IMG/VR virus record: IMGVR_UViG_2875713109_000001
DNA length: 64,000 nucleotides
Direction: 5' to 3' (one strand)
From: a virus
Taxonomy: Duplodnaviria > Heunggongvirae > Uroviricota > Caudoviricetes
In this document: positions 35,230 to 59,103 of the stretch, piece by piece
Layout of the letters: each line of letters opens with the position of its first letter
Numbering within the stretch: position 1 is the first letter of the stretch
Position numbers and translations under genes: made by a program
The notes under the pieces: generated by a model
The model's input: only the letters and a program-made list of their open reading frames with translations
The model's database searches: none
What the model was told of the DNA's origin: nothing

Positions 35230-35751
35230 TTATTTCTTTTCTGGACAAGTAGCATTTGGCTGAATTCGAGTTTCATTATCTTTAGTTGAAATAAGCACAG
35301 CAAGCCCCGTTGTAAACTGGCATGCTTTACCAACTTGAGTTGAAGTGAACACCTTAGTTCCTTCTTTATAAGTCAGTGAAACACCTTCAACAATTGTTTT
35401 ATCACTAACCAAAGAACCAGCCGCTGCACCAAGAGCCGCACCACCAGTACCGCCAGCTACAGCACCCAGTGTCGATGTGCCTTTAACATTATAACCGGCA
35501 ACGCCCCCAGCAACAGCTCCCAGTACCGCACCAAATGTCTGTGCCGCTTCTTTATTAGCTTTATTATCAACTTTCACTTTAGCTGGAAGCACAGAGATAA
35601 TATTGACTGTCTTTGTTTCCTGCTTCGAATTCAATTGAGCGGTATCATAAACATCGGCAGCATAATCAGCACCGCTAGATTGACACCCAGAAAGAAGAAT
35701 TGCAGATACAACAAGAGCGCATAAAGTATACTTTTTAGACATAAGAATCAT
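35230..35751 (-). CDS. lipoprotein with glycine-zipper segment (SlyB-like)
   Basis: Lipobox LLSGC; GAVLGAVAGGVAGY...GAVAGGTGGAALGAAAGS; AT-rich. Confidence 0.6.
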   Translation of the reverse strand: MILMSKKYTLCALVVSAILLSGCQSSGADYAADVYDTAQLNSKQETKTVNIISVLPAKVKVDNKANKEAAQTFGAVLGAVAGGVAGYNVKGTSTLGAVAGGTGGAALGAAAGSLVSDKTIVEGVSLTYKEGTKVFTSTQVGKACQFTTGLAVLISTKDNETRIQPNATCPEKK

Positions 35752-36032: not shown

Positions 36033-36049
36033 CCTGCTCTAATAAATTT
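36033..36049 (+). promoter_or_regulatory. C1 operator-like site (Op51-like) CCTGCTCTAATAAATTT
   Basis: 15/17 match to remembered C1 consensus; just upstream of the immI promoter. Confidence 0.5.
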
Positions 36050-36087
36050 GTATTTTTAAGTCGCGAATGCTATCTTTTCGCATCATA

Positions 36088-36116
36088 TTGACCTTTTAAT
36101 CGTTCAGGCTTATAGT
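36088..36116 (+). promoter_or_regulatory. sigma70 promoter TTGACC-17 bp-TATAGT for the c4-icd-ant operon
   Basis: Near-consensus -35 and -10 with 17-bp spacer. Confidence 0.5.
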
Positions 36117-36229
36117 TTCGCCGTCGTAGCAAATTCTGCGACCAGGTTTGACAGCCTGAATGATTGTGCGGACAACCGCAGATTTCCGATATTGCGGTAT
36201 TTTTGTGTCCGTTAAACCGCGTTACGCCC

Positions 36230-36340
36230 AAATTATGGTGGGGCGTGATGGGGAGGCTTCGGCCTGCTGGTTTCACAATCGCCAGTCTGTCAACCCTGTC
36301 ACGTCCTGCCACCTGTTTGACAGCGGGTAGCAGGTTGTTA
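36230..36340 (+). ncRNA. c4: c4-like antisense repressor RNA region (approximate)
   Basis: Leader between promoter and icd holds hairpin-prone GC segments and TTTGACAGC boxes (~36148, ~36315) with a partial complement CTGTCAAC (~36288). Confidence 0.35.
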
Positions 36341-36363
36341 AACCTGATTGTGAGGCCGTAACT

Positions 36364-36585
36364 ATGGTTAATGCCAATCCTTGCGCACGCCCAGAATTCA
36401 TCTGGCGTTTCTATTCCTGTAAAAAACACCACTATCACTTCGTTATCGCAGCAACTGAAGACGAAGCACGCTCTCAATTGCCTGATGGCCCCTGCATTTT
36501 TACTGCCCGTTTTTCAACTAACTCGCGCAATTCACTTAGTTACTGGAGCCTCCCCTTCTCTGCCGACGTTCAGGGGGGTTTATGA
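36364..36585 (+). CDS. icd: Icd-like small protein
   Basis: 73 aa, ATG with SD GAGG; stop overlaps ant start (ATGA). Confidence 0.6.
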   Translation: MVNANPCARPEFIWRFYSCKKHHYHFVIAATEDEARSQLPDGPCIFTARFSTNSRNSLSYWSLPFSADVQGGL

Positions 36586-37616
36586 AAACACCTCTCGTCA
36601 CCCGTAATGAAATAGCCGAAGCGATCGCCTTGCATACTGCCTGTATGCCGACACGGGAGATCCCCGGCGCAATTGCTAACTATTTCATGATAACCAGACG
36701 TTTTTATACCCGAACAGATAAGGCTGTGATCAACAGGCTACTGATAGCCGAGATCAGGGATTATTTGATTGAACAAGGACGTCTACGTTACGCAACAGTG
36801 GCAGCAGAAATGAGAAAGGAGGCACATAGAATGACCGGTAATAATTTAAATGTTGAAAAACCAGCACCTGTTGCTTCAGCTACGCCAGCACCAGCCCTGA
36901 ATGTCATCCCCAACACCGGAGACACAATCGACAGCCAAACATTGTTGAAGATGGTCAATGAGGCACGGAAATTATGTAGCGAAAAACCAGTTCGCAACAA
37001 TGATTTCATTGCCAGAGTTAAGGATGAGCTTGAAGGAGAAACCTACGAAATTTTCGTAGGTCAAAAAAACGGCGCAGAAATAGATATTATAACCATGACC
37101 TACAAACAAGCCCTGCGAGTTGCCGCGCGCGAGTCAAAAGCGGTCCGCCGTTCGCTGATCGACAAACTGGAAGAATTGCAGCAGGCAAACTCCCCTACCC
37201 CATCGATCCCCCAAACATTACCAGAAGCTCTACGCCTGGCTGCCGAGTTGGCAGAACAGAAAATGCAGTTGGAACAACAGCTGGTGGCCGCAGCCCCTAA
37301 AGTCGATTTTGCCGACCGGGTATCAGTGGCCAATGGAATCCTGATCGGGAACTTTGCAAAGGTCGTTGGACTTAAGCAAAACGCCCTTTTCTCATGGTTG
37401 CGCCAGAACGGCATTCTCATGGCTTTTGGTGCGCGCAAAAACGTACCGCGCCAACAGTACATCAACGCCGGGTATTTCACAGTGAAAGAAGTGGTGCTGG
37501 ATGATGAAAATGGCTACCAGATACGGCTGACGCCCCAATTAACGGGTAAAGGCCAGCAGTGGTTAACTCGCAAGCTACTTGATGCTGGTTTGTTAAAACC
37601 AGTAGCAATAGGTTAA
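36582..37616 (+). CDS. ant1: antirepressor Ant
   Basis: 344 aa; C-terminal antirepressor-type region shared with KilA (IPQTLPEALRLAAELAEQK...GKGQQWL). Confidence 0.7.
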   Translation: MKTPLVTRNEIAEAIALHTACMPTREIPGAIANYFMITRRFYTRTDKAVINRLLIAEIRDYLIEQGRLRYATVAAEMRKEAHRMTGNNLNVEKPAPVASATPAPALNVIPNTGDTIDSQTLLKMVNEARKLCSEKPVRNNDFIARVKDELEGETYEIFVGQKNGAEIDIITMTYKQALRVAARESKAVRRSLIDKLEELQQANSPTPSIPQTLPEALRLAAELAEQKMQLEQQLVAAAPKVDFADRVSVANGILIGNFAKVVGLKQNALFSWLRQNGILMAFGARKNVPRQQYINAGYFTVKEVVLDDENGYQIRLTPQLTGKGQQWLTRKLLDAGLLKPVAIG

Positions 37617-37694: not shown

Positions 37695-37711
37695 TTTGCT
37701 CTAATAAATTT
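37695..37711 (+). promoter_or_regulatory. C1 operator-like site (Op53-like) TTTGCTCTAATAAATTT
   Basis: 16/17 match; 70 bp upstream of kilA. Confidence 0.55.
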
Positions 37712-37780
37712 CGTTTTCTAAGTGCAAAGAATCACCATTTCGAGCTGGTGATTGAAGGTTGATGCAAATTTGGAGAAAAA

Positions 37781-38581
37781 ATGCAACAAACATTCAATGC
37801 GGATATGAATATATCAAACCTTCATCAAAATGTCGATCCTTCAACCACTCTGCCTGTTATTTGTGGTGTTGAAATTACGACCGACCGCGCTGGCCGTTAC
37901 AACCTTAATGCTCTACACAGAGCGAGCGGACTCGGTGCCCATAAAGCGCCAGCTCAATGGCTAAGAACGCTGTCAGCCAAACAGCTCATTGAAGAGCTTG
38001 AAAAAGAAACTATGCAGAATTGCATAGTTTCGTTCGAAGGCCGTGGCGGCGGCACTTTTGCACATGAATTGCTCGCAGTGGAGTACGCAGGTTGGATTTC
38101 TCCCGCGTTTCGGCTGAAGGTAAACCAGACATTTATCGACTATCGAGCTGGAAGATTACAACCTGCTATTCCGCAGAGCCTCCCAGAAGCTCTCCGTTTG
38201 GCTGCTGACCTGGCAGAGCAAAAGCAACGGCTGGAGCAAAAAATGCTGATGGATGCACCTAAAGTCGAATTCGCCGAACGCGTTGCTACCGCCAGCGGGG
38301 TTCTAATCGGCAACTATGCCAAAGTGCTCGGCCTGGGCCAAAACTATCTCTTCACCTGGTTGCGTGATAACGGAATTCTGATCGCAACCGGTGAACGCAG
38401 GAACGTCCCCAAACAAGAATACATATCCCGTGGGTATTTCACCCTTAAAGAAACCGTGATCGATACAAGCAATGGAAGCAGGATTTCTTTCACGACTCGT
38501 ATAACCGGCAAAGGTCAGCAGTGGCTGATGAAGCGATTGCTTGATGCTGGTGTGCTGGTACCTGTCGCGGCAACGCGCTAA
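37781..38581 (+). CDS. kilA: KilA (KilA-N domain plus antirepressor-type C-terminal domain)
   Basis: 266 aa; N-terminal NLNALHRASGLGAHKAPAQWLRT; C-terminus paralogous to Ant. Confidence 0.75.
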   Translation: MQQTFNADMNISNLHQNVDPSTTLPVICGVEITTDRAGRYNLNALHRASGLGAHKAPAQWLRTLSAKQLIEELEKETMQNCIVSFEGRGGGTFAHELLAVEYAGWISPAFRLKVNQTFIDYRAGRLQPAIPQSLPEALRLAADLAEQKQRLEQKMLMDAPKVEFAERVATASGVLIGNYAKVLGLGQNYLFTWLRDNGILIATGERRNVPKQEYISRGYFTLKETVIDTSNGSRISFTTRITGKGQQWLMKRLLDAGVLVPVAATR

Positions 38582-38610
38582 CAGACGTAGTAAGAACCAC
38601 CAGCATTGTA

Positions 38611-39456
38611 ATGCTGGCTAAAGTCACTTTCCTGAGCTGTATAACGATGAGCGATTTTACTTTTTCTGGCTATGAATTGGCTTGCTTTGTAACACACTCC
38701 GGTCTATCCCGTAGCGCCGGGCATATCCTGTCGCAATGTGCAAATCTCGCGGCAACAACCAGTGAATACTTCATTCACAAGCCTCACCGCTTGATCGCGG
38801 CAGAAACTGGTTATAGCCAATCAACCGTCGTTCGTGCATTCCGTGAAGCTGTAAACAAAGGAATCCTGTCTGTAGAGATTGTTATCGGCGATCACCGTGA
38901 ACGTCGCGCTAACCTGTACCGGTTTACACCATCCTTTTTGGCCTACGCACAACAAGCCAAAAATGCGCTGATTGAAAGCAAATTAAAGATCTCTTCAGCC
39001 GCAACCAAGGTTAAAGCTGTTCTCGCTAAGACATTGGCTTTATTTAATTTTTTATCCACACCCCCATGTCAAAATGATACCCCCTCCCCCTGTCAGGATG
39101 ACGTGGCAATAAAGAATAAGAAGTCACAAGTTAAAAAAACAAAAAGATCAGTTTCCGGCGGTGCCGGAACGACCAGACTCAAAAAATTGACTTCATGGAT
39201 CGCTGAGGCAAAAGCAAAGGCTGACAATCTGCGGTTATCCAAAAAACGCGCTCAAAAACATGAGTTCAAGCAGAAAGTAGAGGCGGCAGCGCGGAAATAT
39301 GCTTACCTGAAGAACAAGCGTTCTCCTGATATTGACGGGGTATCAAACTTCGATAATTTGCCGCATTGCATGACGGTAAACGAAGCTCTTAATGCGGTTT
39401 TAGCCAAAAATAAAGATAACGAACAATGGGGTATACCGGCAGGATTCAGAGGGTAA
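38611..39456 (+). CDS. repL: lytic replication protein RepL-like
   Basis: 281 aa directly after kilA; alternative ATG at 38647. Confidence 0.6.
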   Translation: MLAKVTFLSCITMSDFTFSGYELACFVTHSGLSRSAGHILSQCANLAATTSEYFIHKPHRLIAAETGYSQSTVVRAFREAVNKGILSVEIVIGDHRERRANLYRFTPSFLAYAQQAKNALIESKLKISSAATKVKAVLAKTLALFNFLSTPPCQNDTPSPCQDDVAIKNKKSQVKKTKRSVSGGAGTTRLKKLTSWIAEAKAKADNLRLSKKRAQKHEFKQKVEAAARKYAYLKNKRSPDIDGVSNFDNLPHCMTVNEALNAVLAKNKDNEQWGIPAGFRG

Positions 39457-57069: not shown

Positions 57070-57145
57070 GATGGTGTAGCTCAGCGGTTAGAGCGGTTGA
57101 CTGTTAATCAACGGGTCGATGGTTCAAATCCATCCACCATCGCCA
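57070..57145 (+). tRNA. tRNA-Asn (anticodon GTT)
   Basis: Full cloverleaf read by hand: acceptor GATGGTG/CACCATC, anticodon loop CTGTTAA, T-arm GATGG-TTCAAAT-CCATC, encoded CCA. Confidence 0.9.
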
Positions 57146-57147
57146 AT

Positions 57148-57223
57148 GCCGGTTTAGCTCAGTTGGTAGAGCGCCTGCCTTGTAAGCAGGATGTCAGCGG
57201 TTCGAGTCCGTTAATCGGCACCA
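57148..57223 (+). tRNA. tRNA-Thr (anticodon TGT)
   Basis: Acceptor GCCGGTT/AATCGGC, D-arm GCTCAGTTGGTAGAGC, anticodon loop CTTGTAA, T-loop TTCGAGT, encoded CCA. Confidence 0.9.
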
Positions 57224-59027: not shown

Positions 59028-59103
59028 GGCCCTTTAGCTCAGTGGTTAGAGCTGGCGACTCATAATCGCACGGTCACCGGTTCAAGTCCGGTAGGGGCCA
59101 CCA
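59028..59103 (+). tRNA. tRNA-Ile2-like (anticodon CAT, lysidine-type)
   Basis: Near-identical in layout to remembered E. coli ileX: GGCCCTTTAGCTCAGTGGTTAGAGC...CTCATAA...GGTTCAAGTCC...AGGGGCCACCA. Confidence 0.85.

What the first reader, a model, noticed from the sequence alone, without database searches (positions are those of the whole stretch)
36033..36585. immI control region with operator, near-consensus promoter and repeated TTTGACAGC boxes around a putative c4 antisense RNA
The promoter-to-icd leader (~250 nt) is non-coding and hairpin-rich, and carries TTTGACAGC twice (~36148, ~36315) with a partial complement (~36288). This fits a c4-type antisense RNA pairing with target boxes near the icd ribosome-binding site.
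Basis: partly seen in the sequence, partly recalled or inferred. Interest (0 to 1): 0.35.

Follow-up and report, generated by a model that had tools for sequence, protein, structure and literature searches.

The report
P1/P7-type C4 antisense immunity switch
This is the well-known immI control region of a P1/P7-like phage-plasmid, where a small antisense RNA (C4) keeps the antirepressor operon silent; it is ordinary as a system, but its C4 recognition boxes are a natural P1/P7 mix, one of many matched RNA-target "address" types in wild relatives.

Summary
Window 36033-36585 is the immI control region of a P1/P7-like phage-plasmid (98% identical to RCS47, 95.5% to P7, 94.6% to P1). Rfam finds C4 antisense RNA (36231-36316) and its a1/b1 target motif (36110-36162), both above the gathering scores. 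Transferring P1's curated annotation gives the C1 operator, promoters P51a and P51b, a1/b1, the 77-nt C4, a2/b2 and icd-ant1/ant2.

It is b2, not the TTTGACAGC box, that overlaps the icd ribosome-binding site.

The window combines P1-type a boxes with P7-type b boxes at all three places. In 152 related cassettes I found at least 3 a alleles and 9 b alleles in 15 combinations. Of these, 151 agree at all three sites. Across 46 unique sequences, 644 of 644 cells were Watson-Crick for each pairing. Elements carrying 2-3 cassettes always had different b alleles.

Verdict: a known system and a new specificity allele, of modest interest.

The parts
36033..36049 (+). C1 repressor operator (equivalent of P1 Op51/Oc4), CCTGCTCTAATAAATTT
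   Evidence: Aligns with the annotated P1 and P7 C1 operators. The 15-nt core matches exactly and is one of 5 such sites in the window against 0.17 expected.
36047..36076 (+). Promoter P51a/P2c4 (-35 TTTGTAT 36047-36053, -10 TATCTT 36071-36076); its -35 overlaps the operator
   Evidence: Identical in sequence to the annotated P1 promoter, transferred through alignment A1.
36088..36116 (+).
   Evidence: Promoter scan gives 10 of 12 matches. Identical to the annotated P1 P1c4 promoter.
36110..36162 (+). c4-a1b1 RNA motif: two hairpins, the second presenting a1
   Evidence: Rfam RF03163, 55.2 bits against a gathering score of 46.7; local fold.
36148..36154 (+). a1 box TTGACAG (P1-type allele)
   Evidence: P1 annotation transferred. 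Pairs with a' in all 46 unique cassettes, with compensatory changes.
36162..36168 (+). b1 box GATTGTG (P7-type allele)
   Evidence: Pairs with b' in all 46 unique cassettes, and 6 of the 7 pairs covary.
36237..36313 (+). Mature C4 antisense RNA, 77 nt (GGUGGGG...GCCACC), inferred from the P1 and P7 annotations
   Evidence: Rfam RF01695, 68.4 bits. Coordinates transferred from the P1 and P7 misc_RNA features. The MFE fold is a long closing stem with two hairpins, -42 kcal/mol.
36274..36280 (+). b' CACAATC in the loop of the second C4 hairpin
36287..36293 (+). a' CTGTCAA in the single-stranded stretch of C4 between hairpin 2 and the closing stem
36317..36323 (+). a2 box TTGACAG, at the apex of a short hairpin in the icd leader
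   Evidence: P1 annotation transferred; fold; covariation.
36346..36355 (+). b2 box GATTGTG (36346-36352) overlapping the icd Shine-Dalgarno GAGG (36352-36355)
   Evidence: P1 annotation transferred; covariation.
36364..36585 (+). icd (73 aa, cell-division inhibitor); its stop codon overlaps the ant1 start (ATGA)
   Evidence: ORF list; annotated as icd in P1, P7 and RCS47.
36582..37616 (+). ant1 (344 aa), with ant2 in the same frame from ATG 36831: antirepressor of C1
   Evidence: ORF list; Pfam ANT/KilAC domain, E = 1.3e-30; annotations.

Best explanation
This is the immI immunity module of a P1/P7-like phage-plasmid, and it works as described for P1 and P7. One transcript starts at the constitutive promoter P51b. 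When C1 repressor is absent, transcription also starts at P51a, which overlaps the operator. The transcript carries, in order: a1/b1, the C4 precursor, a2/b2, icd and ant1/ant2. Host RNase P cuts before G36237 and releases a 77-nt C4 RNA. C4 has a long closing stem that displays two short recognition sequences: b' in a hairpin loop and a' in a single-stranded stretch. C4 pairs in trans with a2 (7 bp) and b2 (7-8 bp). Because b2 overlaps the icd Shine-Dalgarno sequence, icd translation is blocked. Because ant1 is translationally coupled to icd, antirepressor synthesis is blocked as well, so C1 stays active and the prophage stays lysogenic and immune. The upstream a1/b1 copy carries the same two boxes and also pairs with C4, either as a competitor for C4 or as a partner inside the precursor. 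Specificity lies in 2 variable bases of the a box and 6 of the b box. This element combines the P1 a allele with the P7 b allele at all three places, so it is a self-consistent immI specificity type of its own. Shown here: homology, both RNA motifs, the box positions, perfect complementarity, and population-wide compensatory covariation. Inferred from the P1/P7 literature: expression, RNase P processing, translational repression and coupling to ant.
For: Rfam hits to C4 and c4-a1b1 are above the gathering scores. The region is 94.6-98.2% identical to P1, P7 and RCS47, and up to 99.6% identical to sequenced E. coli plasmids. The curated P1 and P7 annotations of operator, promoters, c4 and a1/b1/a2/b2 align column for column. 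The C4 fold leaves a' and b' unpaired. The promoter and operator are confirmed. icd and ant are intact. In 46 unique cassettes, both C4-a1b1 and C4-a2b2 show 644 of 644 Watson-Crick cells, 8 of 14 pairs with changes on both sides, no one-sided change, slid controls at 27-51% paired, and 0 of 500 shuffles reaching the observed values. Of 152 cassettes, 151 are concordant at all three sites. Cognate duplex energies are -11 to -12 kcal/mol (b) and -9 (a), against -1 to -7 for non-cognate pairs, and the scaffold fold is unchanged in the 12 allele combinations modelled. The mechanism is stated in the literature.
Against: Nothing in the sequence contradicts this explanation. There are no expression or processing data for this particular element. 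The primary papers (Citron and Schuster 1990 and 1992, Heinrich 1994, Lobocka 2004) could not be read here, so mechanistic details rest on GenBank annotations, secondary citations and my own knowledge. One related cassette (L144) is discordant at b2, but it lies 134 nt from a contig end in a genome with two cassettes, so an assembly chimera is likely. Covariation shows that a1/b1 pair with C4, but it does not show what that pairing does.
Confidence: 0.93

Rival explanations
1. The chimeric a(P1)/b(P7) arrangement is a defective or neutral recombination product of P1 and P7, not a working specificity type. C4 would then no longer control icd/ant properly.
For: P1 and P7 recombine readily. The window's flanks are P7/RCS47-like, while its a boxes are P1-like.
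Against: The order on the DNA is a1-b1-b'-a'-a2-b2, so a concordant chimera needs three crossovers or six coordinated changes. All three sites nevertheless match perfectly. The same type occurs in 12 of 143 IMG/VR cassettes, on at least two different flanking backbones, and also in an Escherichia species-representative genome. icd and ant1 are intact. Plasmids 99.6% identical come from dog, pig, fox and human isolates.
Confidence: 0.03
2. The repeated boxes act at the DNA level, as binding sites for a protein, or the leader encodes a small protein (the + strand ORFs 36160-36330 and 36164-36361). On this view there is no antisense RNA. The old record X15639 annotated c4 as a CDS.
For: Mechanical ORFs of 56 and 65 aa span the region. 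An early GenBank record lists c4 as a CDS.
Against: The middle copy of each box is the reverse complement of the outer two, and every natural change preserves Watson-Crick pairing rather than identity or a reading frame. The six variable b' bases sit in a hairpin loop of a structure that Rfam scores well above threshold. Later records and papers describe c4 as a processed 77-nt RNA.
Confidence: 0.01
3. This is the same system, but a1/b1 do not act as a competing decoy for free C4. Instead they pair with a'/b' inside the primary transcript and control precursor folding, RNase P processing or the timing of C4 release.
For: a1/b1 covary with a'/b' exactly as a2/b2 do. The a1-to-b1 spacing (7 nt) mirrors the b'-to-a' spacing (6 nt) much better than the a2-to-b2 spacing does (22 nt). 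All elements lie on one transcript.
Against: The published proposal is competition with a2/b2. The whole-leader MFE fold does not pair a1/b1 with a'/b'. Covariation cannot separate pairing in cis from pairing in trans.
Confidence: 0.3

Closest known systems
Phage P7 immI (c4-icd-ant1/2), AF503408
   Same: 95.5% identical over 1.8 kb. Same gene order, the same upstream lipoprotein gene upf50.5, the same operator core, promoters and C4 scaffold, and the same b boxes (GATTGTG/CACAATC).
   Different: The a boxes differ by 2 nt at each of three places: the window has TTGACAG/CTGTCAA and P7 has TTAGCAG/CTGCTAA. The a'-a2 duplex with a P7 partner is predicted to be weaker (-3.8 to -5.3 kcal/mol, depending on which partner supplies C4, against about -9 for cognate pairs).
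Phage P1 immI (c4-icd-ant1/2), AF234172 / NC_005856
   Same: 94.6% identical from the operator onward. Every annotated regulatory feature can be transferred. The a boxes are the same.
   Different: The b boxes differ by 2 nt at each of three places (P1 has GTTAGTG/CACTAAC). The predicted cross duplex is about -5 kcal/mol against -11.7 for the cognate pair. Upstream, P1 has simABC where the window has upf50.5.
Phage-plasmid RCS47 and other sequenced P1-like E. coli plasmids
   Same: RCS47 is 98.2% identical and has c4 annotated. Plasmids such as NZ_CP010146 are 99.6% identical.
   Different: RCS47 has the P7-type a and b boxes. The 99.6% identical plasmid records list only Icd and Ant proteins under the match. 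PLSDB's gene table holds no RNA genes, so whether the original records annotate c4 is unknown.
Rfam C4 family in other Proteobacteria and their prophages (Weinberg 2010; Acinetobacter baumannii group 1 sRNAs)
   Same: The same three-stem scaffold with variable a' and b' regions, and processing at a GGW motif.
   Different: Those are distant homologues with mostly unknown targets. Here the targets, operon and repressor circuit are those of P1/P7.
Satellite phage-plasmid P4 CI immunity RNA (from my own knowledge, and listed with C4 among RNase P substrates)
   Same: A small immunity RNA cut from the leader of the operon it controls. It is processed by RNase P and pairs with short repeated target sequences on the same transcript.
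   Different: It has an unrelated sequence and acts by causing premature transcription termination rather than by masking a ribosome-binding site. Not tested here.

Membership tests
C4 antisense RNA (Rfam RF01695; P1/P7 c4) | Covariance-model score at or above the curated gathering score | tested here: met
   68.4 bits against 45, E = 3.4e-11, full-length match to model positions 1-87 at 36231-36316.
C4 antisense RNA (Rfam RF01695; P1/P7 c4) | Long closing stem enclosing two hairpins, with b' in the loop of the second hairpin and a' single-stranded between that hairpin and the closing stem | tested here: met
   The MFE fold of 36237-36313 (-42.0 kcal/mol) has exactly this shape. It is unchanged in all 12 a/b allele combinations modelled.
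C4 antisense RNA (Rfam RF01695; P1/P7 c4) | a' and b' complementary to a2 and b2 in the leader of the downstream gene, with b2 at its ribosome-binding site | tested here: met
   a2 is at 36317-36323, and b2 at 36346-36352 abuts or overlaps GAGG at 36352-36355, 8 nt before the ATG. All 46 unique cassettes are 100% Watson-Crick, with compensatory changes.
C4 antisense RNA (Rfam RF01695; P1/P7 c4) | RNA and target are made from the same promoter, under a C1 operator | tested here: inconclusive
   The operator and both promoters are conserved in sequence with the experimentally annotated P1 features. Transcription itself cannot be measured with these tools.
C4 antisense RNA (Rfam RF01695; P1/P7 c4) | 5' end produced by RNase P at GGU, giving an RNA of 77 +/- 1 nt | not testable with these tools
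   The cleavage context AUUAU|GGUGGGG and the 3' GCCACC are identical to P1 and P7. The processing is reported in the literature.
c4-a1b1 target motif (Rfam RF03163) | Score at or above the gathering score; two hairpins, the second presenting a1, with b1 immediately 3' | tested here: met
   55.2 bits against 46.7 at 36110-36162. The fold is. a1/b1 pair with a'/b' in all 46 unique cassettes, with 8 of 14 pairs covarying.
P1/P7 immI operon | c4 followed by icd, with ant1/ant2 overlapping the icd stop, then kilA-repL behind a second C1 operator | tested here: met
   icd is at 36364-36585, ant1 at 36582-37616 (ANT domain), kilA at 37781-38581 and a repL-like ORF at 38611-39456. An exact match to the operator core is at 37697-37711.
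P1 immI specificity type / P7 immI specificity type | The four specificity bases (2 in a', 2 in b') and their targets match P1, or match P7 | tested here: not met
   The window has the P1 state in a and the P7 state in b at all three sites. It therefore belongs to neither reference type, although it is a full member of the system.

The most novel reading that the evidence does not exclude
The a and b boxes of C4 form a combinatorial address code in wild P1-like phage-plasmids. I found at least 3 a alleles and 9 b alleles in 15 combinations, and at least 7 combinations sit at the canonical immI locus. On this reading each combination is a separate heteroimmunity group, and the window's a(P1)/b(P7) type is insensitive to both P1 and P7 C4. 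The different types would let several C4-icd-ant cassettes work side by side in one element without cross-talk. The equally strict covariation of a1/b1 would mean that this 'putative' upstream site is a required working partner of C4.
Probability: 0.55. Interest if true: 0.5.

Novelty: new member of a known kind. Interest (0 to 1): 0.3.

Why it matters
For the window itself it matters little. This is the textbook P1/P7 immI switch, so it identifies the window as a P1-like phage-plasmid and supplies c4 and its target sites, which the plasmid hit tables I saw do not list. The wider pattern is more useful in three ways. First, it gives strong comparative evidence that a1/b1, which P1's own annotation still calls putative, really pair with C4. 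Second, it suggests that immunity groups among P1-like plasmids, which are important carriers of resistance genes in E. coli, are far more numerous than the classical P1/P7 pair and can be read directly from 8 bases. Third, it offers a ready-made natural set of small RNA-target pairs, predicted to be orthogonal, on one constant scaffold.

Tried and rejected
1. I tried to read the primary papers: Lobocka 2004, Citron and Schuster 1992, Heinrich 1994, and the Gilcrease and Casjens D6 paper. None is held in the library. One broad literature query was wasted on word-start matches such as 'immigrant'.
2. RNA.duplexfold of full-length C4 against the target unfolds the whole C4 stem and is not meaningful. 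I used box-level duplexes instead.
3. The genome-contig scan gave only 4 species representatives. It helped with taxonomic range (Aeromonas) but not with allele frequencies.
4. I considered whether linkage alone explains the concordance and rejected it. Linkage explains co-inheritance of the boxes, but not why b1 = b2 = the reverse complement of b' in every allele.
5. I considered whether the single discordant cassette (L144) shows that mismatch is tolerated. I judged an assembly chimera more likely, because both cassettes of that genome sit at contig ends.
6. I rejected the protein-coding and DNA-site readings of the boxes (see the rival explanations).

Full report
**1. What is in the sequence**

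The region was read directly. TTTGACAGC occurs at 36147-36155 and 36316-36324, and nowhere else in the window. A 7-nt reverse complement, CTGTCAA, lies at 36287-36293. A sigma-70 promoter, TTGACC-17-TATAGT, lies at 36088-36116 with 10 of 12 matches. The sequence CCTGCTCTAATAAATTT lies at 36033-36049.

GATTGTG occurs at 36162-36168 and 36346-36352, and its complement CACAATC lies at 36274-36280.

Two copies of a 9-mer in 64 kb are not unusual on their own. The local arrangement is. In 20,000 dinucleotide-preserving shuffles of the 247-nt leader, 195 contained one 7-mer with two direct copies and a reverse-complement copy between them. Only 10 contained two such words, as the window does.

**2. 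What it is**

A scan of the whole window against Rfam gave two relevant matches. C4 antisense RNA (RF01695) matched at 36231-36316 with 68.4 bits against a gathering score of 45. The motif 'a1, b1 targets of C4 antisense RNA' (RF03163) matched at 36110-36162 with 55.2 bits against 46.7.

The 1.8 kb around the finding is 98.2% identical to phage-plasmid RCS47, 95.5% to P7 and 94.6% to P1. It is up to 99.6% identical to sequenced E. coli plasmids, and 781 plasmid records match.

The curated P1 record annotates the C1 operator Oc4 (Op51), promoters P2c4 (P51a) and P1c4 (P51b), the a1 and b1 sites, c4 as a 77-nt misc_RNA, a2 and b2, and icd, ant1 and ant2. P7 and RCS47 annotate c4, icd and ant1/2. 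A four-way alignment has 97% mean column identity, so every feature can be transferred. Exact coordinates were then computed:

| Feature | Window coordinates |
|---|---|
| C1 operator | 36033-36049 |
| P51a | 36047-36076 |
| P51b | 36088-36116 |
| a1 | 36148-36154 |
| b1 | 36162-36168 |
| Mature C4 | 36237-36313 |
| b' | 36274-36280 |
| a' | 36287-36293 |
| a2 | 36317-36323 |
| b2 | 36346-36352 |
| icd Shine-Dalgarno (GAGG) | 36352-36355 |
| icd | 36364-36585 |
| ant1 | 36582-37616 |

- The ant1 start overlaps the icd stop codon. Ant1 carries the Pfam ANT/KilAC domain.
- The operator core occurs five times in the window against 0.17 expected by chance. One of these is an exact copy at 37697-37711, in front of kilA, which corresponds to P1's Op53.

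**3. How it works**

The published model runs as follows. C4 is cut out of the leader of its own operon by RNase P to give an RNA of 77 +/- 1 nt. Its a' and b' sequences pair with a2 and b2 around the ribosome-binding site and block antirepressor synthesis. The upstream a1/b1 copy was proposed to compete with a2/b2 for C4. This is taken from Weinberg 2010, Additional file 1, and from the papers read.

The window fits each sequence-level requirement.
- The 77-mer folds into a long closing stem with two hairpins (-42 kcal/mol). b' lies in the second loop and a' in the unpaired stretch after it.
- a1 and a2 each sit at the top of a short hairpin, and b1 and b2 are single-stranded.
- Cognate box duplexes are predicted at about -9 kcal/mol for a and -11.7 for b.

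Expression, RNase P cleavage, translational repression and icd-ant coupling are inferred from P1/P7. They were not shown for this element.

**4.

P1 and P7 differ at four specificity bases, two in a' and two in b', with matching changes in the targets. That difference is reported to be enough to prevent cross-reaction (citing Citron and Schuster 1990).

The window has the P1 state in a and the P7 state in b, at a1/b1, at a'/b' and at a2/b2. The order on the DNA is a1-b1-b'-a'-a2-b2, so a single crossover between P1 and P7 cannot produce this arrangement.

**5. Survey of relatives**

I ran three scans of IMG/VR and one of species-representative genomes:
- anchored on the C4 core;
- anchored on the a1b1 hairpin stem, which is independent of C4;
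- anchored on the C4 scaffold with all eight variable positions left open.

These gave 152 typed cassettes. The alleles found were:
- a alleles: TTGACAG, TTAGCAG, and TTTGCAG (seen once, in Aeromonas rivuli).
- b alleles, written as the six variable bases: GATTGT, GTTAGT, ACTTAC, ACGAAT, GTACAT, ACTTGT, GTTCAA, ACCAAA and GACAAA.
- 15 a-by-b combinations were seen.

Of the 152 cassettes, 151 have a1 = a2 = the reverse complement of a', and b1 = b2 = the reverse complement of b'. For five cassettes at locus ends, only the sites present could be checked. The single exception, L144, lies 134 nt from a contig end, in a genome whose other cassette supplies exactly the mismatching b2. It is probably an assembly chimera.

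On an alignment of 46 unique cassettes, the C4-a1b1 pairing and the C4-a2b2 pairing gave the same result:
- 644 of 644 cells form Watson-Crick pairs.
- 8 of 14 pairs change on both sides (157 cells).
- No pair changes on one side only, and no cell is unpaired.
- With the partner slid by 1-3 columns, only 27-51% of cells pair.
- None of 500 shuffles reaches the observed percentage paired or covariation score.

Within the 262-nt cassette, variation is concentrated in the boxes.

Further observations on distribution:
- The same a/b type occurs on different flanking backbones.
- At least seven types occupy the canonical immI locus, meaning the one with kilA downstream.
- The window's type accounts for 12 of 143 distinct IMG/VR cassettes. 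It also occurs in Escherichia sp. MOD1-EC7003.
- Phage D6 has the P1 a allele with b = ACTTAC.
- Eight contigs carry two or three cassettes. The additional ones drive paralogous icd-ant operons, one of them next to cre. In all 14 within-contig comparisons the b alleles differ.
- Predicted non-cognate b duplexes are -0.9 to -7.0 kcal/mol, against -11.1 to -11.9 for cognate ones.

**6. Comparison with what is known, and novelty**

The system is the P1/P7 immI C4 module. Every sequence-level defining feature that could be tested was met (see the membership table). The window belongs to neither the P1 nor the P7 specificity type. It is a third, self-consistent type.

Full-text searches found no paper that describes the combinatorial allele diversity or a P1/P7-chimeric C4. 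Several key papers are not in the library, however, so prior description cannot be excluded.

I therefore rate the finding as a new member (a new specificity allele) of a known kind. The finding as written is ordinary. The population pattern is a modest but real addition, mainly because it gives strong comparative support for a functional a1/b1-C4 pairing and points to many more immI immunity groups than the classical two.

**7. Limits**

- There are no transcript data for this element.
- Cross-immunity of the window type with P1 and P7 is predicted only from short-duplex energies.
- IMG/VR contigs are not phylogenetically independent. The number of independent compensatory events is therefore smaller than the number of cells counted, although nine b alleles cannot be explained by shared ancestry of a single change.

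Noticed in passing
window 35230-35751 (- strand): Upstream of immI the window carries the P7-type outer-membrane lipoprotein gene upf50.5 (173 aa, with a weak sub-threshold TraT hit) where P1 has the simABC superimmunity operon. The immI flank is therefore P7/RCS47-like, although the a boxes are P1-like.
   Followed up: partly
window 37697-39456: An exact copy of the C1 operator core at 37697-37711 precedes kilA (37781-38581; KilA-N plus ANT domains) and a repL-like ORF (38611-39456). This is the P1 Op53-kilA-repL lytic replicon arrangement.
   Followed up: partly
window 57070-57142, 57148-57220, 59028-59100: Rfam finds three tRNA genes on the + strand. I recall that P1-like phages carry a small set of tRNA genes, which would fit; this was not checked here.
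   Followed up: no
window 36168-36212: Between b1 and C4 there is a stable hairpin followed by a U-run (GGACAACCGCAGAUUUCCGAUAUUGCGGUAUUUUUGUGUCC). It looks like a terminator and is conserved across the cassettes. Whether it attenuates read-through into c4 is unknown.
   Followed up: no
window 36332-36347: CAGGTTGTTAAACCTG, just 5' of b2, can pair through G-U wobbles with the a1 hairpin region (36143-36158) and with a2, for both a alleles. In the whole-leader MFE fold it pairs with the a1 region. On its own it forms a hairpin. This could be an alternative structure that gates access to b2.
   Followed up: no
window 36297: A U/C polymorphism in the 3' side of the C4 closing stem (G-U or G-C) is largely linked to the a allele (U with TTGACAG, C with TTAGCAG). 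The exceptions are the GTACAT cassettes.
   Followed up: no
IMG/VR contigs, e.g. 2703718869_000013 (L058, L100, L137), 651053023_000001 (L061, L083, L108), 2713896909_000009 (L069, L105, L113): Some P1-like elements carry two or three complete C4-icd-ant cassettes at different loci, one of them next to cre. Their b alleles always differ from one another. The window holds only one cassette.
   Followed up: partly
L144 (IMGVR_UViG_2565956613_000015), 134 nt from the contig end: This is the only discordant cassette of 152. C4 and a1/b1 are type ACGAAT, but b2 is GTTAGT. The same isolate has a GTTAGT cassette at the end of another contig (L043), so an assembly chimera is likely. A real C4-insensitive recombinant is not excluded.
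   Followed up: partly
L134 (Aeromonas rivuli DSM 22539, NZ_CDBJ01000058.1) and L133 ('Bacillota bacterium' MAG, 2.9-kb contig): The same C4 scaffold occurs in an Aeromonas genome with entirely different but self-consistent boxes (a TTTGCAG, b GACAAAG). A 2.9-kb contig binned as Bacillota carries an E. coli-type cassette and is probably a binning contaminant.
   Followed up: partly
window 36160-36330 and 36164-36361 (+), 36070-36477 (-): Mechanical ORFs of 56, 65 and 135 aa overlap C4. The old P1 record X15639 still annotates c4 as a CDS, a historical artefact that automated annotation could propagate.
   Followed up: partly
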